Source: a virus
Taxonomy: Duplodnaviria; Heunggongvirae; Uroviricota; Caudoviricetes
IMG/VR virus record: IMGVR_UViG_3300001765_000263
Coordinates: 1-64,000 of that record
Reading direction: 5' to 3' (one strand)
DNA: 64,000 nucleotides
In this document: positions 5,407 through 24,700 of the stretch, piece after piece
Numbering within the stretch: the first letter of the stretch is position 1
Layout: each line of letters begins with the position of its first letter
Program-made: the position numbers and the translations under genes
Notes under the pieces: generated by a model
What the model was told of the DNA's origin: nothing
The model's input: only the letters and a program-made list of their open reading frames with translations
Database searches by the model: none

Positions 5407-5432
5407 AAAACGGGGCGCAAGCCCCGTTTTTT
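5407..5432. terminator. rho-independent hairpin terminator at a convergent gene junction; could act in both directions
   Basis: aaaacggggc-GCAA-gccccgtttt is a perfect 10-bp stem with a 4-nt loop. An A-run lies 5' and a T-run 3'. It sits 3 nt after the gp32 stop. Confidence 0.7.
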
Positions 5433-5544: not shown

Positions 5545-5553
5545 AATGTCTCC

Positions 5554-7743: not shown

Positions 7744-7923
7744 CTTACATTACCTTTTTAGATTTCTTTTCATTTTCCTCTTGGACATGTTTTATCAATA
7801 ACGTCAAGTAAATCTCCCTCTCCCATGGCAACATTTCTTCTAATTCAGTCAAACTGTACTTATGAAACTGCATTAGACTGAAGTTGATTCTGAAGTAATC
7901 ATATAGACTTTCATGCGAGAGGA

Positions 7924-8616: not shown

Positions 8617-8630
8617 TCATAATCTCCTAA

Positions 8631-9677
8631 TTAATAACCACCATTAGCAATTCCCACAAAGGATCTTGCCTGATTCATTACACTTGAATATCCACCCATT
8701 ACAGGAGATATCGTATCCATAATCTGATTTCTTATTCCGGTTGTTGCTCTATTTATTTGATCAAAAGAACTGCCATAAAAATCTGGTGAAAGGAAGTCTT
8801 TATTAGGCATACCAAATGGATTGTTCTCTGTAGGTGCAGCAATGGGTGATATATCATTTTTACCATTTTGTACAACGGCAGGATTCACTTGAGTAGTTGT
8901 ATAAATGATCTTGGTATATACCATAGTCACTGTCATTGTTTGAAACACATCCTGAGACCTATGACTCAACTGGATTGGATCAATCATCTTTGGATATGCA
9001 TTCTGCAACTTAATAGTATGTACAACCTCTGCATTCGCAGAATCCAATTGGTATATCTCTATATCAGAACAATACTCATTAGAAAAACCAACATCATTTG
9101 TACCAGCATCATCAATAACCATATTCATCCATGAGTCAAAGAAGTCCTTAACCTTCATTGCGGTATCTACTAAAAATGTAAATGACACAGGATCATAGGT
9201 CTTCATGTATGGATATTCAATAGGTGGTCCATAGGTTCTTAATGTCGCAGTTGATATGTTGTTAGATGGGAACGAAGTTGATTCGCAAAACAATGACACA
9301 TCACGAGAAAATTCTTGACGTGTAGGTTGTGTGATATACACCTTGAACCAGTTTGGTTTTGCCAATCCACTTTTACCAATAGCAGATACCAATTCGCCTA
9401 TACCCATGACATCTTTTGAACTAGAGTATCCAGATGATGACACAGCACTGCCACCAAACATCGATTCCAATGGGTTTCCACCACCACTTAGCGAGGATAA
9501 CGGACTATTCTGTTGCATATATTGAATAGCAGACAAGTCTTGTTGTGACGAAAATAATCGTTCTGCTTGTTGAGTAACATTAGTCACTGCATTAAACGCA
9601 TTCGTCGCATAATTCACATTGGCAGCAATGTTGCCCAATTTGTTTTGGAATGCACCTGCTACATCTATATTTAACAT
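8631..9677 (-). CDS. baseplate tail-tube initiator/cap protein with gp19-like tube fold (gp48/gp54 family)
   Basis: KPNWFKVYITQ...LFCESTSFP...TLRTYGPPIEYPYMKTYDPVSFTFLVD...KVKDFFDSW parallels the T4 tail-tube gp19 pattern RPNLFQVEIS...FQCKATALP...DDWTVTVMND...REVFVKW. Confidence 0.6.
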   Translation of the reverse strand: MLNIDVAGAFQNKLGNIAANVNYATNAFNAVTNVTQQAERLFSSQQDLSAIQYMQQNSPLSSLSGGGNPLESMFGGSAVSSSGYSSSKDVMGIGELVSAIGKSGLAKPNWFKVYITQPTRQEFSRDVSLFCESTSFPSNNISTATLRTYGPPIEYPYMKTYDPVSFTFLVDTAMKVKDFFDSWMNMVIDDAGTNDVGFSNEYCSDIEIYQLDSANAEVVHTIKLQNAYPKMIDPIQLSHRSQDVFQTMTVTMVYTKIIYTTTQVNPAVVQNGKNDISPIAAPTENNPFGMPNKDFLSPDFYGSSFDQINRATTGIRNQIMDTISPVMGGYSSVMNQARSFVGIANGGY

Positions 9678-9678
9678 T

Positions 9679-10260
9679 TTAGTATCCTATACTTACTTTA
9701 GAGTCTTGCCAAACCTTGGTGTTCTTAGCACCAATAAACTTGTCTGTTGGTAATTGTGACATCACAATCCAATCATCATCAGGAATCTTCAAAAACTTTG
9801 ATCTACAATGGTCAAACAAATAACGCTTGACACATGGAGCAACTTGTGGAAATCGTGCTGCATTCTTTAGAAATCTCCAACTGAGCAATAGTCTCTGTTC
9901 ATTATTGGTAGTCTTATATGCAAACATGTTCAATTTATGTAATAGTATTAATCTTGCCTGTGGGTGAAGATAGTGTAAATTTAATCCAATAAACCCTTTG
10001 TCATCTTTATTAAATGGTATAACCAATGGAAATTTATCCCAATATGGTAATTCGTCTTTATATTTAGGATCATACATGTACAAATATGTGAATCCTGGCA
10101 GTATTTTTGTAAATGTTGCTCTATTAGTATATGTTCTGGTATTGATTGTTCCCAATTGTTGTATTTTGGAACGAAACCATTGATATGACTTGGCAGGGGA
10201 ATACTTTGGATCAGATTTGATCAGTGCGGTTAATTCACGAATGCTTTGAAGACTTTTCAT
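9679..10260 (-). CDS. hypothetical virion/baseplate-module protein (about 194 aa)
   Basis: An ATG at 10260 overlaps the upstream TGA (ATGA coupling) and has AGGAA upstream. An alternative ATG at 10287 would add 9 aa. No confident family assignment. Confidence 0.4.
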   Translation of the reverse strand: MKSLQSIRELTALIKSDPKYSPAKSYQWFRSKIQQLGTINTRTYTNRATFTKILPGFTYLYMYDPKYKDELPYWDKFPLVIPFNKDDKGFIGLNLHYLHPQARLILLHKLNMFAYKTTNNEQRLLLSWRFLKNAARFPQVAPCVKRYLFDHCRSKFLKIPDDDWIVMSQLPTDKFIGAKNTKVWQDSKVSIGY

Positions 10261-10703
10261 TTTATTCCTAGTTCCGTTTCCGTCCATATTAAAAAGTCGA
10301 AATCATGTGTTGCTGCCCATGCTCGTGCGGCATTCCATTTCGCCTCATTGACCAGATAGGTCACTGACTCTGTTATATATCGTTTGCTTTTTCTCGATTT
10401 CATCTCTGGTGGTCTAGTTTGTGCCTTGGGTTTAATTTCAACAATTGCTTTCTTTATCGTGCCAGTCTTGGTTCTATACATTATGGTCAAATCCACAAAA
10501 TATCTATGGGTCTTATTATCTATGGGACTTACATATGGAATAATATTTTCTTCAGAATTCCATTTCAATATTGCTGGTGTCTTGTCTAAAAGCAAGAATG
10601 CCTTTTTCTCCCATGACGACCTCACTATTATGTTATTTGCGTCACCAATATATTTTTCTGGATTGGTAGGTTTCCAACGGTACGGAGTGGGAAATTTTTT
10701 CAT
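10257..10703 (-). CDS. hypothetical protein (148 aa) with a weak PD-(D/E)xK-like pattern (FVDL...VEIKPK)
   Basis: ATG overlaps the upstream stop (ATGA). The motif is only suggestive. Confidence 0.4.
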   Translation of the reverse strand: MKKFPTPYRWKPTNPEKYIGDANNIIVRSSWEKKAFLLLDKTPAILKWNSEENIIPYVSPIDNKTHRYFVDLTIMYRTKTGTIKKAIVEIKPKAQTRPPEMKSRKSKRYITESVTYLVNEAKWNAARAWAATHDFDFLIWTETELGIK

Positions 10704-10951
10704 ATGTGCAACATATTAGTAAGTATTTGTGGCATTATGAACGAATTAACACTCTCTATTGAGTATAATGAATAATTTAATAAATTATAAGTCATTACCG
10801 ATTCTCCTTCAATTATAGTTAACAATTTTCTTTCCCTTCTAATAGTTTTCATACGACAAGACGCGGAACAAAATCTACGCACCTGCTTGCCTGCCCTTAC
10901 AAAACTGGCATTACATTCTTCACACACAAAATTAAAAGTTTTCCTTGACAT
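10700..10951 (-). CDS. zinc-ribbon protein (CEECN...CSASC)
   Basis: First gene of the minus-strand operon. Two CxxC pairs. Confidence 0.4.
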   Translation of the reverse strand: MSRKTFNFVCEECNASFVRAGKQVRRFCSASCRMKTIRRERKLLTIIEGESVMTYNLLNYSLYSIESVNSFIMPQILTNMLHI

Positions 10952-10996
10952 GATGTACCATAAATATTTGATATCATATATTTATCGGATAGAATA

Positions 10997-12145
10997 ATGG
11001 CAAACATAAAAGACCCAGTAGAATTACGCAGGGCAGGCAGTTCAGAAACAGGTGATTTTAATATCAGTGAATTAATGTATCCTGAAGACCTCTATACAGA
11101 TCAGAAAAAACACATGGTGGTATTCTTCATCAATGTGCCTGGACATTCAAAAATTGGTAGCAAACTATCTAGTGCAAATGAATCTACGTTGAAACCATAT
11201 GTTGGAAAGAGTGGGTCATCTCAAACAAAAGATTTTTTGGGTGTTGGAACAGTCGATATTGGTGGATTAGAAATATCCGTAGCACCTGGATATAAACAGT
11301 TGAAATCTGCCATTGCTATGTACATGCCCCCAAGTTGGCAAGAGCAATATAACGCAAACTATGAAAAGGCAAACAGTCGATATATTCTAAACTTGATGTT
11401 GGAGGCAAATGCCGCAGCAAATGGTCAAGGAACAAGTCGTTTAGCAGAGGCAGGGAAATCCTTGGGCAAGAGTTTATTACAAGGCACAGTGGGCAAAATA
11501 TTCAGTGCTGTAGCAGGTGGTGAGGCACTAGGAAATAAAATTATGGGTAAGATGACCAACCCCAATGCAGAACAAATATTTAATGGTATGGAGTATCGAG
11601 CATTTGAATTCTCTTGGTTAATGGCCCCTAGATCAAGAAAAGAAGCAGACAACATTCTACAGATCATCAACACATTTAAATACCACATGCATCCTGAACT
11701 ATCTCCAGGTGACAATAATCTCATATTCCCTGCAGAGTTCGAAATCGAATTCTATTCTGGTGGAAATGTCAACCAATTTGTGGGTAGTTTATCCACATGT
11801 GCATTATCTAGCATGATTGTCAATTACACACCAGACAATGCATGGTCGGCATTTAAAGGCACAGATGGTTATCCAACGGCAATCACTTTAACCTTGCAAT
11901 TCGTTGAACTAGAACCATTGACAAAAGATCGATTTGATGAATGGGGTGAAGGTGCAAATGCTGCAGGACGTGGTGTCGGTGGTTCTGGTGGGTCTTCTGG
12001 TGGAACATCTAGTAGTCCAATTGGAAATACCACAGATAGATCATATGATCAAGCAGAGTCGAATAGACTAGGCAATTATCCTGCACCTTCTACAGGACTA
12101 ATGGGAAGTGCTGCTGGCTTAATAAACCCAAGAGATAGAAACTAA
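10997..12145 (+). CDS. baseplate protein, possibly the second gp48/gp54-type tube-fold protein
   Basis: HMVVFFINV...YRAFEFSWLMAPRSRKEADNILQIINTF loosely follows the gp19 tube-fold pattern (F.F.W...a...i..F). The Gly/Ser-rich tail is GGSGGSSGGTSSS. It is first in the plus-strand baseplate operon. Confidence 0.35.
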   Translation: MANIKDPVELRRAGSSETGDFNISELMYPEDLYTDQKKHMVVFFINVPGHSKIGSKLSSANESTLKPYVGKSGSSQTKDFLGVGTVDIGGLEISVAPGYKQLKSAIAMYMPPSWQEQYNANYEKANSRYILNLMLEANAAANGQGTSRLAEAGKSLGKSLLQGTVGKIFSAVAGGEALGNKIMGKMTNPNAEQIFNGMEYRAFEFSWLMAPRSRKEADNILQIINTFKYHMHPELSPGDNNLIFPAEFEIEFYSGGNVNQFVGSLSTCALSSMIVNYTPDNAWSAFKGTDGYPTAITLTLQFVELEPLTKDRFDEWGEGANAAGRGVGGSGGSSGGTSSSPIGNTTDRSYDQAESNRLGNYPAPSTGLMGSAAGLINPRDRN

Positions 12146-12738
12146 TGATAAAAAATCTACCAAAAATTTACTACGATTTCGCCATTGAAGACGAATCGAA
12201 AAAACCGATAATCATACCAGATACATTAGTGCGTATCAAGCATCTAATAACAGAATTAGAAAATAATAACCTATTCTTTTACTACACTATTCTGGATGGT
12301 GAAACCCCTGAAATAGTGTCTCACAAGTTTTACGAGACAATGGACTATCATTGGACAATTTTATATGTTAATGATCGATTCGACTATATCACTGACTTTC
12401 CTATGAGTGACAACGATTTGCTCAATTTTGTCAAGAGAAAATATGGTGAGGATCAAGTGGATGCCATTCATCACTATGAAAATGCTCATGGCAATATAAC
12501 AGATGAATATTATTATGATTACAAGAACCGTTATGGAAATCAACCGTCAGTACCAGCACCTAGTTCAACCATGACGTGGAATAGTGATTTATATAAAGTT
12601 GCTGCAAGTCCAATTACTAATTTCGAATATGAAATTATAAAAAATGAAAAGAATAGAATAATAAAAGTAATTAAACCATCATATATAAGTGAATTTGTCA
12701 AGAAATATACTAAATTAATGAAAGACTCGACTAAATGA
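12145..12738 (+). CDS. 53: baseplate wedge protein gp53-like
   Basis: 197 aa, close to T4 gp53's approximately 196 aa. YHWTILYVNDRFDYITDF...GEDQVDAIHHYENAHGN aligns with the T4 gp53 core LYWVLLMCNDNYDPYYGW...GGDQIVYHVNENGE. It sits immediately upstream of the gp27/gp5 pair. Confidence 0.55.
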   Translation: MIKNLPKIYYDFAIEDESKKPIIIPDTLVRIKHLITELENNNLFFYYTILDGETPEIVSHKFYETMDYHWTILYVNDRFDYITDFPMSDNDLLNFVKRKYGEDQVDAIHHYENAHGNITDEYYYDYKNRYGNQPSVPAPSSTMTWNSDLYKVAASPITNFEYEIIKNEKNRIIKVIKPSYISEFVKKYTKLMKDSTK

Positions 12739-14009
12739 ATGAAAATGAATTGGCAATGGGTGGTGATGTAGAGATATCAAAAATAAAACTCTACAATTAC
12801 AAAGGTCTCTACACTGATATTCAATACATGTTCACGGAAATAGAGTTATATGAAAACATATACGAACACTCTCTTTCTGGAACAATCACCATGGTGGATA
12901 CACACAATCTGATAAAAGCATTCCCTATCATTGGTGAAGAAAACCTTGAATTGGTATTTAAAACTCCAGGTTTTAGTGATGAACACGAAATTTCACACAC
13001 ATTCAAAATATGGAAACTCGACAATATATTTACACCAACACCACACAAGCAGATATATACATTACATTTCACCACGCCAGAAGCATATACAGATAAAAAT
13101 ATAAAACTGTTCAAAGCATATAACGGAACACCATCTAGCATTATATCACAGATACTTAACTCTGATATAGGCACAAAGAAGAAAAGTACTATCGGATCAT
13201 GCAACAACAATATCAAATTTGTTGCCCCTAGTATGAGTCCATTTAGATCAATAAGTTATCTGACATCCAGAGCACAGACCGTTGATGGGTTCAAGGCATC
13301 AGACTTTTTGTTTTATGAGAATAATAAAGAATATAGACTAGATTCTGTCAATGATATATTCGATAAAGCAGGTGATCCATCTGTTGAATTTATTTACAAT
13401 AATGATCCTGCACGAGATGGAATCATTAATACCTCAGTCAGAAGTGTTGAATCTGAATTGTCTAAAGTATATGAATATAATATTGATTTTAAATTCGATA
13501 TTATTGATAGATATAATAACGGATTCTATTCCCATTTTGTATGGGAACACAATTTATTGATCAAGAAATTAACAAAACGTGGGTATCATTATAACCAAGA
13601 TTTTAGCAAAACAAAGCATCTAGAAGACTCTCCTATTTCATCTGATAATCATTCAATTGGAAAGAATACCGTTCTTTCCACTGTAACCACTTATCCACAA
13701 ATTCATGATGGCATCATGGAGGATAACTTTGGCAAGATTATCACCAATAAGATTCCTTTATTGGAACAACTCAGGGCAGTGCAAATTGATATCAAAGTTC
13801 ATGGTCGAACTGATCTGGCAGTAGGTAAGGTTATCAAACTGAAATTCACTGGTATGGAAGTACAGATGAAGGATGATACCGATAAGGTTGATGATAAGTA
13901 TGATGGTAAGTATTTAATTGTGGCAATGGCACACAGAATAACTGCCCATAATAAACACGCAATAACCATGCGTCTTGCTCGTGAAAGTGTTAAGGATGGA
14001 TATAAATGA
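12735..14009 (+). CDS. baseplate hub protein, gp27-like by position
   Basis: 424 aa, directly upstream of and start/stop-coupled to the gp5-like spike. The size and position fit the gp27 hub. Only a weak C-terminal pattern similarity. Confidence 0.4.
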   Translation: MNENELAMGGDVEISKIKLYNYKGLYTDIQYMFTEIELYENIYEHSLSGTITMVDTHNLIKAFPIIGEENLELVFKTPGFSDEHEISHTFKIWKLDNIFTPTPHKQIYTLHFTTPEAYTDKNIKLFKAYNGTPSSIISQILNSDIGTKKKSTIGSCNNNIKFVAPSMSPFRSISYLTSRAQTVDGFKASDFLFYENNKEYRLDSVNDIFDKAGDPSVEFIYNNDPARDGIINTSVRSVESELSKVYEYNIDFKFDIIDRYNNGFYSHFVWEHNLLIKKLTKRGYHYNQDFSKTKHLEDSPISSDNHSIGKNTVLSTVTTYPQIHDGIMEDNFGKIITNKIPLLEQLRAVQIDIKVHGRTDLAVGKVIKLKFTGMEVQMKDDTDKVDDKYDGKYLIVAMAHRITAHNKHAITMRLARESVKDGYK

Positions 14010-16609
14010 CAAATAAGATTGGGAACAAAATTGTATGGTTTGGTGTCGTGGAAGATCGTATGGACCCACTATTTTTGGGCCGTTGTCGAGTACGTATTGT
14101 AGGTATTCACACTGATAACTTAATTGAATTGCCTACATCAGATTTACCTTGGGCATGGCCATTACAAACAATTGGAAGTGCTGCTATATCTGGTGTCGGT
14201 AATGCTCCTGTTGGACCAGTTGAAGGAACATGGATTGCTTGTACATTCTTGGACGATTGGCAACAGCAACCATTTATGTTAGGTGCTATAGGTGGCATTC
14301 CAGTACCACTAGATGACAAGGCAGAAGACATTGAGGGATTTTTAATTAATGATGTGCAAGGGAATGCCACATCAAAATCTAATCCTCCACCAGCACCTTC
14401 TAATGCAGTTAAAGACAGTTCTGGCGAACCAATCAAAACTGGATCTGGTGGATATGTAACCACTGATCCTGCTATATCCACACCTAACACAATTGGTAAT
14501 TTAACACCAGAACAATATTCAAATCTGAAGGACAAAATTGGTAAAGTAGAATCTGGTGGAAAATACGACATTGTAGAAGCAAAGAATGGTAACTATCTAG
14601 GCAAGTATCAGATGGGTGCAGAGGCATTGGAGAGTGCTGGATATATAAAACCTGGTGCATCAAAACGCTATGGCACAAAGGCAGTGCAAGACCCTAGCAA
14701 TTGGACTGGTAAAGATGGTGTCACATCGAAGGATTCATATTTAAAAAATCCAACGGCACAAGAAAGTGCCATGGATTCGAATCTTAAAACAAACTTTAAG
14801 GCAACAGGACTAAGCAATTCTATACCTGCAGATAAACAAGCAGGTGTTCTCATGGCATCACATTTGGTGGGTGCAGGTGGTGCGAAGAAATTATTAAATG
14901 GTGATAACCCTAAAGATGCCAATGGCACAACAGCAGCAAGCTATTTCCAGAAGGGTGCATCTGTTGTCACAGGCAAATCATCTAATGAAGTGCCAAAGGC
15001 AGCAAATTTAGCCAAACCTGCAATTGACACTAACGTGGAAAACACTTCACTTAGTGATAAGGGTAAATTTGATCCAGACAATATGCCAGAGGTCATAAAG
15101 AAATTAAAGACTAAGGCATCTGAGAAAATTGGTTTCACTGATCCAAACGAAAAATATCCTAAAGAGGAATGGTTGAAAGAACCAGACACACATCGTTTGG
15201 CACGTCATCAATCTATTGATAAGACCATTGTTCCTACCAAGGAAGAAGAACGTGATAAAGAAATACCAATTGCCAATGCTGAAGATACATGGGATCAATC
15301 GTTAATTCCATACAATGCAAAATACCCATTCAATCATATCTTCGAATCGGAATCAGGTCATACCATTGAGATTGATGATACTGAAGGAATGGAAAGAATA
15401 CACATCTATCACAAGACAGGAACATTCATTGAGATTGACTCAGAGGGAACATTGACCAGACGAGTTAAAGGCAATGAAGTCACTATCTCAGAAAACGACA
15501 ACAAGACGCATATTATGGGTACTGGTATTCTCACAGTCGATGGAGATTTTGCTGTAGAGATTCACAAGTCATTACAAATATTTGTTTCAGGTGATGCACA
15601 AATAAAGGTTGAAGGCAATGTCATTCAAGAGATTGACGGCAACTATGATAGTCACGTAAAAGGCAATATGACAGTACAGTGTGACGGTGACTATAATCTG
15701 AAAGTTAGTGGTAATTCAATTGAGGAAACTGAAGGTGACTTTGATCAGAAAGTTGGAGGTGACACATCAGAAGAAGCAGGTGGAAACTACACTATTCAGG
15801 CAGGACCATTGTATGCAGTTGATGCAGGACAAGTACATAATAACTCTGGCAAGGCAACTGGTGCGTCTGGTGCTGAAGATGCAGCACCTATTGAAGTGTT
15901 CGAACCAGACCTTAAAGTTCTCGATCCTACAACAAGACAATCTGCAAGTGATTTTGAAATGGAAGATGCTGCTGAAGAGGATAAAGTCAAATATATTGAG
16001 GAAAAGAAATTGAGTGGCAATTCGCCTAAAGAAGCACCTATGCCAGAAAATGAGAAGAAAAAAGACACAGCACCAGCACCAAATATTGATCAGTACAAGA
16101 GCAATCCAAACAGTGAAACATTGAAACCACCATTCACCAAAGATACTCAACTGTCAACCAATTTTAAATTAGGTGATCTATGTCCAAAAGGATTACCACC
16201 AGAAGGTGGGCAAGCGGGACTAACACAAGCACAAATTGTTCAGAATTTGAAAGATACAAGTATCAACGTGTTAGAACCAATGAAGGAAAAATATCCAGAC
16301 CTTAAGGTTAATAGTGGTTTCCGTGAAGGTGCTGGCACATCACAACATCATAAAGGGCAAGCAGTTGATCTATCCTATGGTGCAGCAAATGCATCTACTA
16401 ATAAGAAATCAATGATGCAAGATTTTGCTTCTGATATTAAGAATAGCACTGCACATGATCAGATCATTCTTGAGACTGCAGGTGGTAATTCAGCATGGGT
16501 TCATGTATCGAATAACCCACAAGGAAATAGACCCAATTCTGATCCTACTAAACACATGACTATGGATACATCTACTGGCAAGAAAACTAGTGGATTAGGA
16601 TTTGCATGA
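14006..16609 (+). CDS. 5: baseplate central spike, gp5-like: N-terminal OB-fold, beta-helix, then a C-terminal peptidase M15 (VanY / L-Ala-D-Glu peptidase-like) domain
   Basis: N-terminus KIVWFGVVEDRMDPLFLGRCRVRIVGIHTDNLIELPTSDLPWAWP is the gp5 OB domain. Repetitive V-x-G-x beta-helix (GNVIQEIDGNYDSHVKGNMTVQCDGDYNLKVSGNS...). C-terminus SGFREG...SQHHKGQAVDL...WVHVS matches the M15 Zn ligands (SxHxxGxAxD plus a distal His). YLGKYQMGAEALESAGY in the middle resembles a T4-lysozyme FQMGETG-like segment, but that resemblance is weak. Confidence 0.8.
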   Translation: MTNKIGNKIVWFGVVEDRMDPLFLGRCRVRIVGIHTDNLIELPTSDLPWAWPLQTIGSAAISGVGNAPVGPVEGTWIACTFLDDWQQQPFMLGAIGGIPVPLDDKAEDIEGFLINDVQGNATSKSNPPPAPSNAVKDSSGEPIKTGSGGYVTTDPAISTPNTIGNLTPEQYSNLKDKIGKVESGGKYDIVEAKNGNYLGKYQMGAEALESAGYIKPGASKRYGTKAVQDPSNWTGKDGVTSKDSYLKNPTAQESAMDSNLKTNFKATGLSNSIPADKQAGVLMASHLVGAGGAKKLLNGDNPKDANGTTAASYFQKGASVVTGKSSNEVPKAANLAKPAIDTNVENTSLSDKGKFDPDNMPEVIKKLKTKASEKIGFTDPNEKYPKEEWLKEPDTHRLARHQSIDKTIVPTKEEERDKEIPIANAEDTWDQSLIPYNAKYPFNHIFESESGHTIEIDDTEGMERIHIYHKTGTFIEIDSEGTLTRRVKGNEVTISENDNKTHIMGTGILTVDGDFAVEIHKSLQIFVSGDAQIKVEGNVIQEIDGNYDSHVKGNMTVQCDGDYNLKVSGNSIEETEGDFDQKVGGDTSEEAGGNYTIQAGPLYAVDAGQVHNNSGKATGASGAEDAAPIEVFEPDLKVLDPTTRQSASDFEMEDAAEEDKVKYIEEKKLSGNSPKEAPMPENEKKKDTAPAPNIDQYKSNPNSETLKPPFTKDTQLSTNFKLGDLCPKGLPPEGGQAGLTQAQIVQNLKDTSINVLEPMKEKYPDLKVNSGFREGAGTSQHHKGQAVDLSYGAANASTNKKSMMQDFASDIKNSTAHDQIILETAGGNSAWVHVSNNPQGNRPNSDPTKHMTMDTSTGKKTSGLGFA

Positions 16610-17298
16610 CATATACAGTAACACCAATTGCGGTTCAAATAGTAGAAGGAACTCCCACATTTAACGAAACATTAACAGTTACGTGTGATGGGGAAAATAC
16701 TGGCACTGCAACGGTAATTGAAGTTACAACAGATGCAACCAGCATAGACTTGAAATACACAAAGAAAGATAACACTGCAACGGTTACTGGATCGGTAATT
16801 AAGAAATCTCTCGCAGAATTTTCAAGAACCTATTCATACGTCACAGACGATAATCAACGTGGTGTAGTTACATCGATATCACAAGTTCCATCGAATGCAT
16901 CCATTTACAGATATACCGCACCAAACCCAATGGGGAATGTAGTTCCAGCAAATATAAAAATTGAATGCACGTCTGGAACTGGTGGTACAAGTACATCAGC
17001 ATGGGCATGTGGAGTAGACACATATGGGGCATTGGGATTTAATGGGGAATCTAAAACAACACTAACCTCCCTTGGGGCATATTCAAAAATAAATCAAGGG
17101 TACGGGCTAACTGCACTAATAAAACCAAATGGCACATTATGGACATGTGGATATAATTATTTCGGTGGATTAGGACTAGGTGACAATATTAATAGATCAT
17201 CACCAACACAAGTTGGAAACTACATGGAAAGAGGTAAGTTGTGCATACAACAGATTATTTGCAATCAAGACAGATGGATCATTGTGGGGTTGTGGTGA
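16606..17298 (+). CDS. RCC1-like repeat protein, 5' segment of a frame-disrupted gene
   Basis: Has an ATG start. RCC1-type blades (WACGVDTYGALGFNGESKT..., GTLWTCGYNYFGGLGLGDNINRSSPTQVG). The frame breaks at 17215-17225, inside a 113-bp repeat. Confidence 0.5.
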   Translation: MTYTVTPIAVQIVEGTPTFNETLTVTCDGENTGTATVIEVTTDATSIDLKYTKKDNTATVTGSVIKKSLAEFSRTYSYVTDDNQRGVVTSISQVPSNASIYRYTAPNPMGNVVPANIKIECTSGTGGTSTSAWACGVDTYGALGFNGESKTTLTSLGAYSKINQGYGLTALIKPNGTLWTCGYNYFGGLGLGDNINRSSPTQVGNYMERGKLCIQQIICNQDRWIIVGLW

Positions 17299-18934
17299 CA
17301 ATTTAAATCAAATATTAGGTTTCGGTGACGATATTCATAGATCAATACCTACACAAGTTGGAACATTGCGTACTTGGAAAACAGTAAATTGTCAAACATC
17401 AAAGACATTAGCAACAGATACATTAAATCGTGCTTGGTTGTGGGGATATGATGGATATGGAGAATTTGGATTAGGCGAATCTGGCAAGGTATTTTCAACA
17501 CCAACCTTATTAGATGAATATTCAATTGCCTTTACACCACTACTTACTGTGTATGGATGGAATAGTTCTGGCAAATTTGGAGACCCACAAACCTTTTTTT
17601 TATTACCAAAAACACTGGATTATGCCGATTCTGATTGGATTAACTCTTATATAAAAAACACCATGTATCATATGGCAATAGTTAAAGGAAATGGTACATT
17701 ATGGGCAACTGGAAATATACTATATGATCAATATTTGTATACTACAGCATCATCACCTGTACAAATTGGATCACTTTCTGATTGGAGTAAAGTTTCAGTT
17801 GGTGAAGCGTACACAATGGCATTAAAAATGGACGGTACGCTATGGACGTGGGGAAATGCTGCCGAAGGAAGATTGGGGGTTGGTGATGACTCACCTAGAT
17901 ACTCTCCGACACAAGTTGGAGTGTCTAGTGATTGGGATAGTGTTAGTTGCGGGTTGTGGCACACCGCAGCAATTACTATTAACGGTGTAATGTGGGCATG
18001 GGGAACACAGGCATCTTATGCACTAGGAAATGGTAATAGTTATGGATATCAACCATCTCCAATAGAAATTACACAGGAATATGATAGTTCATTAGCAGTA
18101 GTACCGACAACAAACAATTGGAATCAGGTTAGTTGTGGCTCAAATTATACTTTAGCGATAAAAACTACTGGCACGTTATGGGGTTGTGGATATAATAATA
18201 GTGGGCAATTGGGGCTTAGTAGTTATAATAATTCTCCATACTTTAGACAAGTTGGAACTTTATCTAATTGGTCTAAAGTTGATACTGCCAATAATTCAAG
18301 ATTTAGCACTTTAGCAGTCAAAACAAATGGTACATTGTGGGCATGGGGAAGAAATGATTATGGACAACTAGGATTGGGAGATACATTACCAAGAATTTCT
18401 CCAGTGCAGGTTGGAACTAATACCAATTGGAGTGATGTGTCTTTTGTAGAGTATTATACTTTAGCATTAAACAATCAGGGTGGATTGTTTCAATGTGGAT
18501 ATTGGAATAATAACTATGTTGTTACATTAACAGAAGTCGAACCAAACTCAACATGGTCAAATTTTTATGTTAAAAACACCCCAATAAAAACTCATATAAC
18601 AGATATCTATTGGAAAGACACTGATATATCATTGGAGAATTTCATTGGTATTAAAGAAGATGGCACACTATGGGCATGCGGGTATTATGCTGTAGAATTG
18701 ATGGGATTTCCTGGTGAATACGGTGCGCCAACATCAACATCGTCATTAGTTCAAATTGGAATGGATACAGATTGGAAAACATGTTCTGTAAATTTTGGTA
18801 CTGCAGCAGTAATTAAAACTGATGGCACATTATGGACATGTGGATATAATTATTTCGGTGGATTAGGACTAGGTGACAATATTAATAGATCATCACCAAC
18901 ACAAGTTGGAAACTATCTACATGGAAAGAGGTAA
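17180..18934 (+). CDS. RCC1-like repeat protein, middle segment. There is no ATG and the listed GTG start lies inside the upstream repeat, so this is probably a continuation rather than an independent gene.
   Basis: The blade pattern continues in the +1 frame immediately after the break (…TTWKEVSCAYNRLFAIKTDGSLWGCG…). It ends at a second frame break in the second repeat copy. Confidence 0.45.
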   Translation: MTILIDHHQHKLETTWKEVSCAYNRLFAIKTDGSLWGCGDNLNQILGFGDDIHRSIPTQVGTLRTWKTVNCQTSKTLATDTLNRAWLWGYDGYGEFGLGESGKVFSTPTLLDEYSIAFTPLLTVYGWNSSGKFGDPQTFFLLPKTLDYADSDWINSYIKNTMYHMAIVKGNGTLWATGNILYDQYLYTTASSPVQIGSLSDWSKVSVGEAYTMALKMDGTLWTWGNAAEGRLGVGDDSPRYSPTQVGVSSDWDSVSCGLWHTAAITINGVMWAWGTQASYALGNGNSYGYQPSPIEITQEYDSSLAVVPTTNNWNQVSCGSNYTLAIKTTGTLWGCGYNNSGQLGLSSYNNSPYFRQVGTLSNWSKVDTANNSRFSTLAVKTNGTLWAWGRNDYGQLGLGDTLPRISPVQVGTNTNWSDVSFVEYYTLALNNQGGLFQCGYWNNNYVVTLTEVEPNSTWSNFYVKNTPIKTHITDIYWKDTDISLENFIGIKEDGTLWACGYYAVELMGFPGEYGAPTSTSSLVQIGMDTDWKTCSVNFGTAAVIKTDGTLWTCGYNYFGGLGLGDNINRSSPTQVGNYLHGKR

Positions 18935-19233
18935 GTTGTGGGTATAAAAGTTTTATTGCACTAAAGACAGATGGCACAATATGGACATGTGGGTATAACA
19001 ATTATAATTTAGGATTTGACGACGCACTTCATAGATCGTCACCATGTCAAGTCGGAACATTATCCACATGGTCTGATATAACTATAACTGAAAATGCAAT
19101 TGGTGCAATTCAAGGTATAGCAGGAACTGGTACAACTAACATAGTAAATATACCGTTCAACTTTAATATTCAATCAGATTGGAATAAGGCTAATTCTGAA
19201 TTGATTACTGCCGTTAAAGGGAGAACTGTGTAA
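18889..19233 (+). pseudogene. RCC1-like repeat, 3' segment back in frame 1 (no start codon). With the two ORFs above it looks like a single frame-disrupted or recoded gene.
   Basis: Frame 1 is open from 18889 to TAA at 19231-19233. It encodes …TWKEVSCGYKSFIALKTDGTIWTCGYNNYNLGFDDALHRSSPCQVGTLSTWSD…, i.e. further blades. Confidence 0.35.
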
Positions 19234-19523
19234 TGCCAGCAATTACTAGATTAGGTGTTGATCCTAGTGCAGGACATTGTTTTCCTCCGAGACCAACTGA
19301 TACTGCAGGACAAGGAAGTGTTTATTGTAATAACATATTGGCAACAGTTATTGGCGCACATTACCCAACACATTGTTGTCCACCACCATGTCATGATGGA
19401 GTAGCATCACAAGGTTCGCCTAATGTATTCTATGAAAATATACCAGTTCATAGAATTGGTGATGCCATTAGTTGTGGTGATATATCAGCATCTGGATCAC
19501 CTGATGTATTCGCTAATGGGTAA
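19233..19523 (+). CDS. 5.4: PAAR-repeat spike-tip protein (T4 gp5.4-like)
   Basis: 96 aa. GSPNVFYENIPVHRIGDAISCGDISASGSPDVFANG shows PAAR motifs. A His/Cys cluster (GHCFPP...HCCPPPCH) fits the Zn site. Confidence 0.75.
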   Translation: MPAITRLGVDPSAGHCFPPRPTDTAGQGSVYCNNILATVIGAHYPTHCCPPPCHDGVASQGSPNVFYENIPVHRIGDAISCGDISASGSPDVFANG

Positions 19524-19631
19524 CATAAATATATCATTAAGTAACAATTGATTAATTAATGTATCACATGCAAGAGGGGACATGGAATTCTCTCACATTT
19601 CTACAATTATGTCAAGTTTATTTGGAAAAAT

Positions 19632-20024
19632 ATGCAACAAAATTACCTTTACTCAGACTTTGGTCTTCTCTTTAAGAAACATCCTACAACACAGGATATG
19701 ATTCTTAAGTATGACGTGGATTCGGTCAAACAAGCATTGCAAATATTGTTCTTAACCAACAATTATGAGAAACGGTTTGACCCAAAATTTGGGGTTGGTA
19801 TTTACCATATGTTGTTTGACAACATTACTCCATTGACAAAGATTACCCTACTCAAAAAGATACAAAATCAGTTAGCCTACTACGAACCTCGTGTTGTTAT
19901 TGATGATCTGCAGATCAACGTAGATAAAGGTGACAATAATGAAATTACCGTGGATTTCTATTTCCATGTGGTAGGTCAGCTAAAAACAGAACTTTTAACC
20001 CTTAATTTTGCGAGAATTAGATGA
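19632..20024 (+). CDS. 25: baseplate wedge protein gp25 (GPW/gp25 family)
   Basis: 130 aa. YLYSDFG...VKQALQILFLTNNYEKRFDPKFGVGIYHMLFDNITPLTK...YEPRV matches T4 gp25 KLYSDID...RPFDPEFG...LFENMTPLTA...YEPRI. Confidence 0.85.
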   Translation: MQQNYLYSDFGLLFKKHPTTQDMILKYDVDSVKQALQILFLTNNYEKRFDPKFGVGIYHMLFDNITPLTKITLLKKIQNQLAYYEPRVVIDDLQINVDKGDNNEITVDFYFHVVGQLKTELLTLNFARIR

Positions 20025-21781
20025 GCACATTAAACAGTAAAATCCGTGTATCAGAACTTGATTTTGAGTCTATCAAGACCAATTTTAAATCGTTCATGTC
20101 TGCACAGTCAGAATTTGCCGACTATGATTTCGAGGCATCTGGAATGTCTATTCTTATGGACTTGCTTGCATATAACACATACTACAATTCTGTTCTGGCA
20201 AACTACACTGCAAATGAAACCTTTATTGACAGTGCGGTGAAGAGAGATTCTGTCGTGTCACATGCCAAAGCATTAGGATATACCCCAAAGGCAGTTAAAT
20301 CGTCTCGTGCTAAATTAAAAATGACTCTAAGGAATGTGATGGGAGAACCGTCACAATTAGTCATGCCAGCAGGTACGCCATTTGAAGCAACCATCAAAGA
20401 AGATGTGTATCAATTCGTTACTATCGATACCACTGTAGCACCTGTCAGTGACAACGAATTTACCTTTGACAGTTTCTATGTTTATCAAGGAATATTTCAG
20501 CAAAATACCTTTTATGCCAATGGAGACGTAGTAGAAAAGTTTACTCTACCAAATCCAAATGTGGATGTAACCAGCATACGTGTGTATGTGAGAAAGTCAG
20601 AGAGTGACTTGGATATGGTAGCGTATGGTCATGTTGATACTATTATTGATCTAAACCCAGAATCCATTGTGTTCTTTACACAAGAAGGCATTTCAAACTT
20701 GACAGAAATATACTTTGGTGATGGTATTCTAGGAAAGCAACTTGCTGCCGGTAACGTCGTTCATGTTACCTATATCACCTCTGCAGGACAGGTTACAAAC
20801 GGGTGTAAGGTATTTAAATTGACTGGTGCAGTTGAGGGGAATACCAACGCGACAGTGACTACATTAGAGATTGCATCTGGTGGTTCTGATGCCGAAGAAA
20901 TCGAATCGATTCGATTCAACGCAATGACATATTTTGGTGTTCAGAATCGTGCGGTTACAGCAGAAGATTCTCGTGCATTAGTTATGCAGAAATTCTCAAA
21001 CATCAAAGATATTATTGTGTGGGGTGGAGAGAAACAAACCCCTCCTGAATATGGCAAGATCTTCATATGTGTCCAACCAAAGAACACAGATTTCTTGACA
21101 ACATCTGAAAAAGAAGAGATTACCACTATTGTTAAACAACGTGCAGTAGCTAACATTTCACCTAAGTTTGTTGATCCAGAATTCATCGACATAGAATTAT
21201 ATGCAGATGTATATTATGATAGATTCAGAAATGATAAATCGACTGTAGATCTAAAGAATATAGTGGTGTCAGATATAAACGACTATGCAAACAAATTCTT
21301 AAATAGATTTGACAGCATTTTAAGGTATTCTTTAGTTAGTAAGATTATAGATTCGTCTGATTATTCTATTTTAAGCAACTTACTAAAAATAAAGGTTTAT
21401 AAATCATTTTTACCTGTATTATTTTATCAGAATATAATCAGTTTTAAATTCTACAATAATATTACTAGTATCGGTTCAACTGGTTTTTATGTTGAGGGTT
21501 TAGCAGAAAAAGTGTATGTAAGAAATAATGGATCTATTGCTCAATTATATTACTACACTGCAACAAAAGAATTAAAGATATATAAGGATGTTGGTACTGT
21601 AGATTTAACAAACGGAACTATTAATCTAGATCCATTGTTAATAACAAAATTTGATGGTTCTGAGATAAGGTTATATGCAACTCCATATATTAATGATGTG
21701 TTTTCAAAGAATAATAATATTACCAGACTTCAATCGAAGAATGTGTTTGTAAATATCTATGATGATAAAATAAGGTCATAA
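20021..21781 (+). CDS. 6: baseplate wedge protein gp6 (baseplate J-like)
   Basis: ADYDFEASGMSILMDLLAYNTYYNSVLANYTANETFIDSAVKRDSVV matches the T4 gp6 N-terminal block LDYDFEGSRLNVLCDLLAYNTLYIQQF...SFMRTANLRSSVV. Gene order is 25-6-7-8. Confidence 0.8.
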   Translation: MSTLNSKIRVSELDFESIKTNFKSFMSAQSEFADYDFEASGMSILMDLLAYNTYYNSVLANYTANETFIDSAVKRDSVVSHAKALGYTPKAVKSSRAKLKMTLRNVMGEPSQLVMPAGTPFEATIKEDVYQFVTIDTTVAPVSDNEFTFDSFYVYQGIFQQNTFYANGDVVEKFTLPNPNVDVTSIRVYVRKSESDLDMVAYGHVDTIIDLNPESIVFFTQEGISNLTEIYFGDGILGKQLAAGNVVHVTYITSAGQVTNGCKVFKLTGAVEGNTNATVTTLEIASGGSDAEEIESIRFNAMTYFGVQNRAVTAEDSRALVMQKFSNIKDIIVWGGEKQTPPEYGKIFICVQPKNTDFLTTSEKEEITTIVKQRAVANISPKFVDPEFIDIELYADVYYDRFRNDKSTVDLKNIVVSDINDYANKFLNRFDSILRYSLVSKIIDSSDYSILSNLLKIKVYKSFLPVLFYQNIISFKFYNNITSIGSTGFYVEGLAEKVYVRNNGSIAQLYYYTATKELKIYKDVGTVDLTNGTINLDPLLITKFDGSEIRLYATPYINDVFSKNNNITRLQSKNVFVNIYDDKIRS

Positions 21782-21786
21782 AGAGT

Positions 21787-24700
21787 ATGTCAAATTTAAA
21801 ACCAAATGTTCGTGATGTTATTGGTGGGCAATTTCCGGTTTTTATTAATAACGGAACATCTAATTTTGTACGATTTATAGAGTTGTATTATGAATGGATG
21901 GAAACTAATGGAAATCCATTGGAATTTATTCGTTATGTATTAGAAGAACACGACTATGATACCGCACAAGATAAGTTCAAAAGATTGATTGAAAGCGGAG
22001 TTCTTAATAATCTGGCAGTTCAAACTGATATTGATAAATCTATTCTTGTCAAGAACATAAAGCAATTTTTTAGATCGAAAGGGTCTGAGGACTCATTTAA
22101 GTTCTTATTTAATGTGATTTATTCTGAAGAGGTTGATCTTGAGTGGGGTAGAGATTTATATTTAAAATCGTCTGATTCTGCATACCGTATGGACACAATA
22201 TTAGTGGTCAGACAACCTACAGTTGATGTGACTGCAATACTTGAGTTTGGAAGTATTAAAGATGTTGTCATTAATTCGTCTGATTATGGGTTTTTCGAAC
22301 CTCCATCAATTAATGTAATTAGAAATATTGATGATGATATAAATCATATTATTCCTATTGTTGATTATGATTTAACTGGACATGTTATCCCAGAAGATGT
22401 TTCAGAAGATCCGGTTGAGGTTAAATTGATCAGTGGTGGAACTGGCTATATGGATGCTACTGTTGTTGTTCATGGAGATTGTGTAACACCTGCAGTTATC
22501 AACGCTACTGTTGAAGATGGAAAAGTGAAAAAATTATCTTTAGTATCTGGTGGTGTTGGATATAAAGAATTACCAACAATGACAATTGAGAGTCTCACAG
22601 GAAGTGGTGCTGAAGGAAGTTTAAAATGGACAGCAGTATTGGGGAACTTTGATATTATTGATGGAAAGAGTGGTTGGGCAGCACCTCCAACAATAACTTT
22701 CCTTGGTGGGTTGGGGTATGTTTATACATACGACATAGAAGGCAATATCACATCGTCAAGACAGTCAGAACCAGCACAAGTATTTTTTAATATTGATGAG
22801 AATGGCACAGTCAAGGACGCATATTTCACTGGAACTGAAGGCGAAAACTACACTTCAAAACCAACTATTCGTTGGAATATCCCAATTAATATTGATGCAG
22901 TATTAACCTCGTCTATATCTAGCACAAAAGTAACCAACTGTAATGTTGTTATTGGTGGTACAAACTATATCACACCACCAAGTATTGAATTTTCATATCC
23001 AATATATGACTATAGCAAGTTGGTTGGTGGAAGAATATCAACATATGGTGGCAGTTATGCAACTGCCATTGTGGATAGTGTTGTTGGAACCACTGTGAAT
23101 GGTATTGAATACACAATACTATATCTTCAGAAAGAAGGAATCACTGGAACTTTTGACAAAAATTCTGTACTTGTGGCAGATGTAGCAGGAGAACAACTTG
23201 TTGCAGTGAATACACCATTATTCTCAAAGGTGGATATCATCAGTGGTGGGTCTGGTTATAGAAAAGGTCAGATTGTAAATTTTGACGACGAGGGAGTTGG
23301 TGGAACGGTATTAATTGACGATGTATCTACTGGTGCAGTCGATGAAATCATTATTGCAAATCCTGGCCATGGATATAAAGTTGGGGACAAAATAACTTCA
23401 GAGGATGCCCTTGGTAGTGGTCTTGTGGCAAATGTAAACACCATTGACGGTATTGGGTTCAAAGGTGAAGTTATTGTAGAGATTGACGAAGTTAGAATTT
23501 TGGACAATGGATATGACTATGCAGTAAACGATATTATTTACATTTATGGTGGCGAAAAGGACGTAAGCAATATTTCTGATACCACAAAGTTCGCAAAAAT
23601 GAAAATCTTGGCAGTTGGTGACTCTGACGATCTTAGAGAACTGACCATTGCTAATGCTGGATATGGATATAGATACTCATCTCTTGCAATCATTGAAACC
23701 GGAAACCCAATACCACTAAGACAGATAAGACCGGACGGGTCAAACTATGATGAAAATCAAAATCAACCAATTGCGTCCGATCCACAAAATACTTTGACGG
23801 TGACATATTCACCTGTTGGTGAAATAAAACAAATATACTGTGAGTTGGTTGAACCAGATTTAGGAACAAAGAATATTACTGTTGTGTTGAATGGCACTGG
23901 CGCATCGTTAACAGAAACCGTAACCGCAGGGGAAATTACCAATGTGGTGATTAACACGTCAGGTGTTAACTATGTTTCACCAGTGGTAAAGGTGGTAAGT
24001 CCTACTGGATCAGGTGCTACATTTGATGTAGAAATAGATGGGTTTGGGAGTATAACCAATGTAAGCATTCTTCATGGTGGTTCTGGATACGCCGCAAGTG
24101 GATTGACAACATTAGAAGTTGTTGAAGAATATGGTGTTGGTGCGTTAATCACTCCTATCTTTAGACAAGGTGGAATAGATTCACTTAGTTTTGAAATGGA
24201 ACATCGTGGAGAGTTTAATGAGTTTAACAAATATGGAAAAGAAAGACAATATACTATTCTTGGTGGTTCTGGCACTGGTCTTGTGCTCGATCTATATTAC
24301 AGACCAAAATATATTAACGTAATTGATCCTGGAAAATATTATTCAAATTACACATTATCTGTAACTGAAGGGCATGGTTCTGGTTGTGTTGCAGTTGCTG
24401 AAATTAGAAGTGATGTAATAAAAACAATTGGTATGGTTGCAGTTGGTTCTGGATATAGCAGTGATGACGTAAGAGTAGTGATACAGTCAGAAAATGGTAC
24501 TGGTTTTATTGGAACTCCTGAAGTTGTGGCAGGAGAAATAACCGGAATAACAATTATTGATGGTGGATATGGGTATTCTGAAACTGATCAGATTGACATA
24601 ATTGGAGAAAACGTAACACCAGCATCTGCAGAAATAACTGACATTATTCACGGAACTTTAAGAAACATCAACCTTATCAGTGGTGGCTCACATTATCACC

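What the first reader, a model, noticed from the sequence alone, without database searches (positions are those of the whole stretch)
16606..19233. RCC1-repeat gene between spike gp5 and PAAR tip is split across three reading frames at two copies of a 113/117-bp direct repeat
A 113-bp segment (17131-17243) recurs at 18824-18940. The two copies are identical except for a 4-bp insertion (tcta) in the second. Each copy encodes the blade GTLWTCGYNYFGGLGLGDNINRSSPTQVGN. In both copies the reading frame breaks right after QVGN. Compared with intact blades elsewhere, copy 1 lacks 5 nt and copy 2 lacks 1 nt. The blade pattern then continues in another frame: frame 1, then frame 2, then back to frame 1, ending 2 nt before the PAAR gene ATG. 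So a roughly 2.6-kb RCC1 gene sits in the unusual gp5-to-gp5.4 gap and reads as three fragments. This could be programmed frameshifting, a decaying recent insertion, or repeat-induced assembly or indel errors.
Basis: seen in the sequence. Interest (0 to 1): 0.7.

Follow-up and report, generated by a model that had tools for sequence, protein, structure and literature searches.

The report
Assembly-broken phage RCC1 propeller gene
The three-frame split of this phage gene is almost certainly a short-read assembly error at two copies of a 120-base perfect repeat, and the real gene is most likely one ordinary open reading frame of 877 codons.

Summary
An RCC1-repeat gene lies between gp5 and the PAAR gene. 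It changes frame twice, each time inside a near-identical repeat of about 115 nt.

The breaks are very unlikely to be biological. The window matches a Middle Island Sinkhole metagenome contig.
- A sister assembly of the same phage is otherwise identical. It differs only at these two points, where it lacks 65 and 68 nt.
- A third, independent assembly (Logan, SRR931349) reads ATCTATCTACATGG at site 2. With the agreed GGAAA upstream, this gives GGAAATCTATCTACATGG, encoding G-NLST-W.
- That reading is in frame and fits the 4-residue blade linker found in 135 of 135 other blades.
- A k=31 graph simulation reproduces the Logan contig start only if both copies carry this sequence.

Adding TCTAT after 17219 and T after 18912 gives one 877-aa ORF with 14 blades, which could form two seven-bladed propellers. 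The closest relative has a single unbroken 5017-aa RCC1 ORF in the same slot.

I found no slippery site and no RNA structure, and the two shifts run in opposite directions. Fragment 3 has no usable start codon.

Verdict: assembly artefact, low interest. The RCC1 gene in the gp5-PAAR slot is a modest side note.

The parts
14006..16609 (+). gp5-like baseplate hub / spike gene (867 aa). Its TGA stop overlaps the RCC1 gene's ATG (ATGA).
   Evidence: Pfam Gp5_OB, Gp5_trimer_C and Gp5_C; PHROG 430 baseplate hub and tail lysozyme; start/stop overlap read.
16606..17220 (+). Fragment 1 of the RCC1 gene (frame 1): an N-terminal non-RCC1 region of about 125 aa plus blades 1-2, ending in ...PTQVGN.
   Evidence: Pfam RCC1; blade-HMM hits at residues 124-208. 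The N-terminal region aligns collinearly with the relative's 5017-aa ORF.
17129..17243 (+). Repeat copy 1 (115 nt as assembled, most likely 120 nt in reality).
   Evidence: Logan contig L007 ends at 17158, which is the last copy-1-specific 31-mer before the shared repeat.
17219..17222 (+). Break site 1. The assembly reads GGAAA|CTAC; the inferred true sequence is GGAAA-TCTAT-CTAC, so 5 nt are missing after 17219. The sister assembly instead lacks 17220-17284.
   Evidence: sister assembly; k=31 simulation needs both copies identical through ATCTATCTAC...GTTGTG; 4-residue linker rule.
17222..18919 (+). Fragment 2 of the RCC1 gene (frame 2): blades 3-13.
   Evidence: Pfam WD40_RLD 1.4e-73 and RCC1 5e-47; blade HMM. 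There is no ATG and no SD-preceded start in its first 400 nt.
18328..18375 (+). 48-nt exact repeat shared with another RCC1 gene of the same phage at 56012-56059. Exact sequence is therefore shared between distant RCC1 paralogues.
18822..18940 (+). Repeat copy 2 (119 nt as assembled, most likely 120 nt in reality).
18912..18919 (+). Break site 2. The assembly reads GGAAA|CTATCTAC; Logan contig L003 reads A-T-CTATCTAC, so one T is missing after 18912. The sister assembly instead lacks 18913-18980.
18919..19233 (+). Fragment 3 of the RCC1 gene (frame 1): blade 14 plus a C-terminal tail of about 55 aa. The TAA stop overlaps the PAAR ATG (TAATG).
   Evidence: The only in-frame start codons are at 19201 and 19228, so it cannot be translated on its own.
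19233..19523 (+). PAAR (gp5.4-like) spike-tip gene, 96 aa.
   Evidence: Pfam PAAR_motif; PHROG 281.

Best explanation
Window 16606-19233 is one gene, and the frame breaks are assembly errors.

What the gene is. It most likely encodes one protein of 877 aa: an N-terminal region of about 125 aa, 14 RCC1-like blades (enough for two seven-bladed beta-propellers) and a short C-terminal tail. It sits in the baseplate-hub operon of a T4-like phage, in the order gp27-like, gp5, RCC1 gene, PAAR, gp25, gp6. Its start overlaps the gp5 stop and its stop overlaps the PAAR start.

Why it looks broken. Blades 2 and 13 share a perfect repeat of about 120 nt, probably from recent gene conversion or duplication. 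This appears to exceed what the short-read data could span (read length not checked), so de Bruijn assemblers would have to bridge it. This assembly dropped TCTAT after 17219 and T after 18912. The public sister assembly dropped 65 and 68 nt of window sequence at the same two points. The true junction at both sites is most likely GGA AAT CTA TCT ACA TGG (G-N-L-S-T-W).

Shown: the repeat, the disagreement among three assemblies, the extra T in the Logan contig, the graph simulation, the blade rule, and the intact orthologue in the relative.

Inferred: the exact base upstream of the Logan contig's first two bases, how the assembler made the error, and the protein's role. I infer a virion-associated binding propeller near the central spike, from gene order and from the RCC1 genes that lie next to an annotated tail fibre gene in related phages.
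For: 1. Source. The window's 230-aa fragment-1 ORF is an exact match to a protein on a JGI 81,707-bp contig. Contig JFJP02000120.1 / MIS_10000120 (81,630 bp) is identical to the window over 4006-17219, 17285-18912 and about 18981-29523. Over 54548-62363 it differs by one SNP. Otherwise it differs only by lacking 17220-17284 and 18913-18980, which start exactly at the two break points.

2. Logan assembly of SRR931349.
- L007 is 100% identical to window 4006-17158 and ends where a k=31 unitig must end.
- L003 is 100% identical to 18913-23779 but begins AT-CTATCTAC, where the window has AA-CTATCTAC.

3. k=31 de Bruijn simulation.
- The window as assembled predicts a unitig start at 18886 and does not contain L003's first 60 nt.
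- Correcting copy 2 only also fails.
- Correcting both copies to GGAAATCTATCTAC reproduces the L003 start to the base.

4. Blade rule. The linker between QxG and W is 4 residues in 135 of 135 blades of this phage's RCC1 genes and the relative's. LS occupies linker positions 2-3 in 74 of 135. The corrected reading gives NLST.

5. The corrected DNA is 2634 nt, giving 877 aa with no internal stop. A blade HMM finds 14 units, and both breaks fall exactly on blade boundaries, 208|209 and 774|775.

6. The closest relative (gp5 58% identical, PAAR 82% identical) has one unbroken 5017-aa RCC1 ORF filling the gp5-PAAR gap.

7. Fragment 3 has no usable start, and fragment 2 has no ATG or SD-preceded start. 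Apart from the two breaks, the frames stay open over 584 aa in a 36% GC genome.

8. The Middle Island Sinkhole data are Illumina short reads assembled with IDBA-UD or Velvet (PMC8651085).
Against: - No reads could be inspected.
- The Logan contig gives only two bases (AT) upstream of CTATCTAC. GGAA-AT (a substitution, with the frame still broken at both sites) or GGAAA-AT (+2) cannot be excluded from Logan alone. The choice of GGAAA-T rests on the GGAAA shared by both JGI assemblies and on the blade rule.
- Evidence for site 1 is indirect: it comes from graph-boundary logic, not from a sequence that spans the site.
- L003 also ends at 23779, where the window has no repeat. Logan contigs can therefore stop for other reasons.
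- I cannot reconstruct how an assembler would delete exactly 1 and 5 nt.
- No assembly in the protein collection carries the intact full-length gene.
Confidence: 0.8

Rival explanations
1. The frameshift mutations are real. The gene is a very recent pseudogene, or the assembly captured a defective minority allele. A 1-nt deletion arose in one repeat copy, gene conversion copied it to the other, and copy 1 then lost a further 4 nt.
For: The two copies are being homogenised: they share a perfect 94+21 nt tract. Both copies share the same missing T, as conversion would produce. The slot upstream of PAAR holds different cargo in other relatives, so the gene may be dispensable.
Against: The Logan contig from the same population (100% identical over 18 kb) carries the T, and the graph logic requires the same sequence in copy 1. 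A second JGI assembly shows different lesions at the same bases, which points to an assembly-graph boundary rather than a mutation. No other stop or indel has accumulated in 2.6 kb.
Confidence: 0.11
2. Programmed ribosomal recoding: a +1 (or -2) shift at site 1 and a -1 shift at site 2 yield the full-length protein. At site 2 the shift could occur on A-AAG in GGA AAG AGG TAA.
For: The 21-24 nt after each break are identical and contain an A-AAG motif and an SD-like AAGAGGT, followed at site 2 by a stop two codons on. Fragments 2 and 3 lack starts.
Against: - The same context would have to drive shifts in opposite directions.
- A slip at A-AAG would give ...NYLHGK-EVSC, which breaks the invariant 4-residue linker and loses the conserved W.
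- There is no X XXY YYZ heptamer at the blade junction.
- Downstream folding is no better than shuffled sequence (z 0.47 and -0.46).
- The relative's orthologue is unbroken.
- Other assemblies do not share the sequence at these sites.
Confidence: 0.03
3. Phase variation: a (CTAT)n / (TCTA)n tetranucleotide tract really varies in copy number within the phage population, switching the propeller gene on and off or truncating it.
For: The three versions can be written as 0, 1 or 2 CTAT units before CTAC. The gene is a plausible host-interaction protein.
Against: The tract has at most 2-3 units, far below the length at which slipped-strand mispairing is frequent (my knowledge of contingency loci). 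The difference between Logan and the window at site 2 is a single T, not a 4-nt unit. The sister assembly's lesions are 65 and 68 nt, not multiples of 4.
Confidence: 0.03
4. Three separate genes encode three independent RCC1 proteins.
For: Gene callers annotated separate products of 230 or 211 aa and 550 or 599 aa.
Against: Fragment 3 has no start before its last 10 codons. Fragment 2 has only GTG or TTG candidates without an SD. The fragments hold 2, 11 and 1 blades, and only the sum (14) fits seven-bladed propellers. The two callers chose different starts.
Confidence: 0.02

Closest known systems
Repeat-induced misassembly and indel errors in short-read de Bruijn metagenome assemblies
   Same: The lesions sit inside a perfect repeat of about 120 nt. 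Independent assemblies disagree only there. Logan k=31 contig ends fall exactly on the repeat boundaries.
   Different: The errors here are small deletions (1 and 5 nt; 65 and 68 nt in the sister assembly), not the more usual collapse or chimeric join. I could not reconstruct the exact assembler step.
Phage RCC1-like repeat proteins (Pfam PF00415/PF13540; PHROGs 7220, 4219, 16766). Examples: Synechococcus phages S-SRM01 and BUCT-ZZ01, Clostridioides phage phiCD211, and coliphage phAPEC6, which has eleven copies.
   Same: Tandem RCC1 blades of about 50 aa, often several paralogues per large myovirus genome, function unknown (PMC7247149). In BUCT-ZZ01 the RCC1-like gene lies next to an annotated tail fibre gene, downstream of gp5.
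   Different: Here, and in one uncultured relative, the gene lies directly between gp5 and PAAR and overlaps both neighbours at its start and stop.
T4 central spike module gp27-gp5-gp5.4 (PAAR)
   Same: Gene order is gp27-like, gp5 (OB fold, lysozyme-like region, beta-helix), PAAR, gp25, gp6.
   Different: A 2.6-kb RCC1 gene (15 kb in the relative) sits between gp5 and PAAR. In addition, gp5 carries an extra endolysin-like C-terminal region after the beta-helix.
Programmed ribosomal frameshifting (dnaX A-AAA-AAG -1; prfB +1; phage tail chaperone G/GT -1)
   Same: The reading frame continues in another frame with no new start, and an A-AAG motif and an SD-like motif lie nearby.
   Different: The two shifts run in opposite directions in one context. 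There is no heptamer at the junction, no stimulatory structure and no conservation, and the sequence is not reproduced in other assemblies.

Membership tests
RCC1-like repeat beta-propeller proteins | Significant matches to the RCC1 repeat models, above Pfam's gathering scores | tested here: met
   Corrected protein: PF00415 213.5 bits (cut-off 21.7), PF13540 133.5 bits, PF25390 320 bits (cut-off 150). Each fragment also matches.
RCC1-like repeat beta-propeller proteins | Blade number compatible with closed seven-bladed propellers | tested here: inconclusive
   A blade HMM finds 14 units in the corrected protein. Three of them score weakly (4.1, -3.1 and 7.7 bits).
Programmed -1/+1 ribosomal frameshift site | Slippery sequence at the point where the protein register changes | tested here: not met
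   The junctions read GGA AAC T|ACA TGG and TAT CTA|ACA TGG, with no X XXY YYZ heptamer. The nearby A-AAG would give a product that violates the 135/135 linker rule.
Programmed -1/+1 ribosomal frameshift site | Stimulatory downstream RNA structure | tested here: not met
   Minimum free energy is no better than shuffled sequence: z = 0.47 at site 1 and -0.46 at site 2.
Programmed -1/+1 ribosomal frameshift site | Frame break conserved in related genomes | tested here: not met
   The closest relative has one unbroken 5017-aa ORF. Other assemblies of the same phage do not reproduce the sequence.
Pseudogene / decaying gene | Several independent disabling lesions and relaxed constraint along the gene | tested here: not met
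   There are only the two lesions, both inside the repeat. Each fragment is otherwise open throughout, in a 36% GC genome.
Simple-sequence contingency locus (phase variation) | A long homopolymer or tetranucleotide tract whose length changes in whole repeat units | tested here: not met
   The tract has at most 2-3 CTAT/TCTA units. The differences between assemblies are 1, 5, 65 and 68 nt.
Assembly artefact at a repeat | Independent assemblies of the same population disagree only at the repeat | tested here: met
   The window, JFJP02000120.1 and the Logan SRR931349 contigs are identical over the regions compared (one SNP aside). They give three different sequences at 17220 and 18913.
Assembly artefact at a repeat | Raw reads contradict the assembled sequence | not testable with these tools
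   No read access. There is only indirect read-level evidence, from the Logan k=31 contig ends.
T4-type central spike module (gp5 + PAAR) | gp5 OB fold and beta-helix domains, and a PAAR-motif protein, in a baseplate gene cluster | tested here: met
   PF06714, PF22178, PF06715, PF05488 and PF04965; neighbouring genes.

The most novel reading that the evidence does not exclude
The frame breaks, or at least a 1-nt deficit at both identical junctions, are real in the phage. The full-length propeller would then be made by recoding at two copies of a conserved 120-nt element, or switched on and off by length changes in the short CTAT/TCTA tract. That would be a phage host-interaction gene controlled by paired frameshift sites. 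The Logan contig shows only two bases upstream of the junction, so a GGAA-ATCT reading, out of frame at both sites, is not strictly excluded.
Probability: 0.05. Interest if true: 0.7.

Novelty: not a real feature. Interest (0 to 1): 0.12.

Why it matters
The result is mainly a caution. The public record JFJP02000120.1 (GCA_001188585.2) and the IMG gene calls list artefactual 211-, 230-, 550- and 599-aa 'proteins' for what is most likely one 877-aa gene.

The biology that remains is modest but real. A lineage of uncultured T4-like phages carries an RCC1 beta-propeller gene directly between the spike protein gp5 and its PAAR tip. The gene is 877 aa here and 5017 aa in a relative, and several more RCC1 genes lie elsewhere in the genome. 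If these proteins are virion components, they would be a new kind of spike-proximal or fibre-like binding module. The in-frame perfect repeats between blades also suggest how such arrays could grow or shrink by recombination.

Tried and rejected
- Megablast of the region against cultured phages found no match.
- A gapped junction pattern in IMG/VR gave 0 hits.
- A 23-nt repeat pattern in JGI metagenome contigs hit only an unrelated freshwater RCC1 contig, L005. The Middle Island Sinkhole contigs are not in that collection.
- I tried to fetch the Logan contig that covers the middle fragment.
  - Exact look-ups of predicted products found nothing. The two known Logan partial products were also absent, so this negative result says nothing.
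- The look-up of P0123, meant to identify the 81,707-bp contig's sample, found no record.
- A second homology search used a 314-aa query spanning both corrected junctions. It returned only distant RCC1 proteins at 50% identity or less, and no other assembled version.
- A scan of IMG/VR with the N-terminal domain gave no further relatives.
- A PDB sequence search with the gp5 C-terminal region gave no hit.
The N-terminal 130 aa folded alone gave pLDDT 33.5, which is unusable.
- I considered and rejected the following:
  - An intron or spliced segment, prompted by the AG|GTAAGT motif and the 65- and 68-nt gaps in the sister assembly. The 'missing' segments encode canonical blade sequence, and removing the site-1 segment does not restore the frame.
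  - T4 gene 60-type bypassing: no stop follows a take-off codon, and I found no take-off/landing codon pair that restores the blade frame.
  - Restoration of the frame by recombination between the repeats: the spacings, 1693 and 1697 nt, are not multiples of 3 as assembled.
Full report
**Observation**

The region was read directly.
- An ORF starts at 16606, with its ATG overlapping the gp5 stop, and stays in frame 1 until 17298.
- Frame 2 is open from 17180 to 18934.
- Frame 1 is open again from 18889 to the TAA at 19231-19233, which overlaps the PAAR ATG.

All three pieces match the RCC1 repeat models. The neighbours are gp5 (Gp5_OB, Gp5_trimer_C), PAAR and gp25.

The direct repeat is real.
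- 17129-17222 equals 18822-18915 (94 nt).
- A 4-nt indel follows.
- Then 17223-17243 equals 18920-18940.
- Other blades of the gene are only 61-65% identical to copy 1 at the DNA level.

In both copies the blade register changes frame right after ...PTQVGN.

**Where the sequence comes from**

- The window's fragment-1 ORF (230 aa) is an exact match to a protein on a JGI/IMG contig of 81,707 bp.
- A sister contig of 81,630 bp exists as NCBI JFJP02000120.1 (GCA_001188585.2) and as IMG 3300002026 MIS_10000120.
- This sample set is the Middle Island Sinkhole cyanobacterial mat. It was sequenced with Illumina short reads and assembled with IDBA-UD or Velvet (PMC8651085).
- The arithmetic fits the window being the first 64 kb of the longer contig: 81,630 - 56 + 133 = 81,707.

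**Three assemblies, three sequences, at the same two bases**

The 81,630-bp contig matches the window as follows.
- It is 100% identical over 4006-17219 and 17285-18912.
- It is identical from about 18981 to 29523.
- Over 54548-62363 it differs by one SNP.
- It lacks window 17220-17284 (65 nt) and 18913-18980 (68 nt). Both gaps begin exactly at the two frame breaks.

Its annotated 599-aa protein (P0001) is a fusion made by the second gap.

A third, independent assembly of run SRR931349 (Logan, k=31) gives two contigs.
- L007 is 100% identical to window 4006-17158.
- L003 is 100% identical to 18913-23779.
- L003 begins ATCTATCTACATGG, where the window has AACTATCTACATGG.

So in 18 kb, the only difference between Logan and the window lies at break site 2.

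**Graph test**

I simulated k=31 unitig boundaries.
- With the window as assembled, the unitig that leads into PAAR should start at 18886. L003's first 60 nt do not occur in the window at all.
- If only copy 2 gains a T, the predicted start is still wrong.
- If both copies read GGAAATCTATCTACATGG...GTTGTG, the predicted start matches L003 to the base. Its first 31-mer then ends on the first copy-2-specific nucleotide.
- The L007 end at 17158 is predicted by every model, which confirms the two-in, two-out repeat.

This is indirect read-level evidence that both copies are identical across the junction and differ from the window.

**Protein-level test**

- In all 135 blades recognised in this phage's six RCC1 genes and in the relative's orthologue, the linker between QxG and the conserved W is exactly 4 residues.
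- LS occupies linker positions 2-3 in 74 of those blades.
- GGA AAT CTA TCT ACA TGG encodes G-NLST-W, which is canonical.
- Inserting TCTAT after 17219 and T after 18912 gives a 2634-nt ORF of 877 codons with no internal stop.
- A blade HMM built from the relative's blades finds 14 units. The breaks lie on blade boundaries 208|209 and 774|775, so the fragments would hold 2, 11 and 1 blades.
- Fourteen blades fit two seven-bladed propellers.

**Relatives**

The nearest relative found is IMGVR_UViG_3300001765_000038 (gp5 58% identical, PAAR 82% identical).
- It has one unbroken 5017-aa RCC1 ORF that fills the whole 15-kb gap between gp5 and PAAR and stops just before the PAAR ATG.
- Our protein aligns collinearly with the start of that ORF, including the N-terminal non-RCC1 region.

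The gene is therefore a shared feature of the lineage, not a fresh insertion, and it is expected to be a single ORF.

More distant relatives carry other cargo in front of PAAR: a 685-aa unknown protein and two Laminin_G_3 proteins.

**Rivals**

*Programmed frameshifting.* It would need +1 at site 1 and -1 at site 2 in the same context.
- There is no slippery heptamer at the junction.
- The nearby A-AAG would produce a blade without its conserved W.
- Downstream RNA folds no better than shuffled sequence.

*Separate genes.* Fragment 3 has in-frame starts only in its last 10 codons. Fragment 2 has no ATG or SD-preceded start.

*Real mutation or minority allele.* This remains possible, because no reads were seen and the Logan contig shows only two bases upstream of the junction. 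I give it about 0.1.

*Phase variation.* A tract of 2-3 units is unlikely to vary, and the size differences are not multiples of 4.

**How the gene probably works (inference)**

The gene overlaps gp5 at its start and PAAR at its stop, which suggests translational coupling. I infer that it is made together with the central spike proteins.

RCC1-like genes in related large phages sit next to an annotated tail fibre gene (BUCT-ZZ01). This phage has five more between 47.9 and 62.4 kb.

The most likely role is a virion-associated binding propeller. No experiment or structure supports this yet. PHROGs files such proteins under 'regulator of chromosome condensation' by name only.

**Verdict**

The three-frame split is an assembly artefact with probability about 0.8, so it is not a real feature. 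Interest is low.

The points worth keeping are these.
- The public record and its protein entries are wrong at these two sites.
- An RCC1 gene in the gp5-PAAR slot, which reaches 5017 aa in a relative, is an unstudied feature of this uncultured phage lineage.

Noticed in passing
L008:8722-14715, continuing in L020 up to the PAAR gene at L020:10001 (merged coordinates 8722-23772): The closest relative (IMGVR_UViG_3300001765_000038, 75.8 kb) has a single uninterrupted 5017-aa RCC1-repeat ORF of 15 kb between gp5 and PAAR. This is an unusually large phage gene, about a fifth of the contig.
   Followed up: partly
window 47889-62435 (+ strand): There are five consecutive RCC1-repeat genes, with open stretches of 1826, 606, 471, 1285 and 723 aa. 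Where checked, each starts at or near the stop of the previous one. Many exact repeats of 31-65 nt are shared among them, and one (56012-56059) is shared with the gp5-PAAR RCC1 gene at 18328-18375. This suggests exchange of sequence between paralogues.
   Followed up: partly
window ~16139-16580 (gp5 residues ~712-858): gp5 carries a second lysis-type region after its beta-helix (PHROG 894 'endolysin', 2e-12), in addition to the internal one at residues ~170-315. A domain after the helix raises the question of how PAAR caps the spike tip. No PDB sequence match was found.
   Followed up: partly
L001 (JFJP02000120.1) 9306-11800, equivalent to window 16606-19233: The public NCBI/IMG record of this phage has 65- and 68-nt deletions at the two repeat copies. 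Its 211-aa and 599-aa protein entries (P0124, P0001, P0121) are therefore artefactual.
   Followed up: yes
window ~10257-10703 (- strand; L001:2957-3403): A 148-aa gene with a TnsA-like endonuclease N-terminal domain (PF08722) sits between the gp2-like gene and the baseplate genes. It may be a homing-endonuclease-like insertion.
   Followed up: no
window 21787-28905 (+): A 2372-aa ORF right after the gp6-like gene has no Pfam match on record. It contains many repeated GG(S/T)GY-type motifs and is presumably a giant baseplate or wedge protein.
   Followed up: no
L021:2-3984 and L022:125-2179: In phages whose PAAR is 68% identical, the gene directly upstream of PAAR is a 685-aa protein with no Pfam match. 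It is preceded by two Laminin_G_3 (concanavalin-like lectin) proteins. The position in front of PAAR appears to be a variable cargo slot.
   Followed up: partly
window 56940: This is the only base substitution (A in the window, G in MIS_10000120) found between the two JGI assemblies in more than 30 kb compared.
   Followed up: no
window 17229-17240 and 18926-18937: Both repeat copies contain GAG|GTAAGT, a perfect match to the eukaryotic 5' splice-site consensus. I take this as coincidence: it encodes K-E-V-S of the blade.
   Followed up: yes
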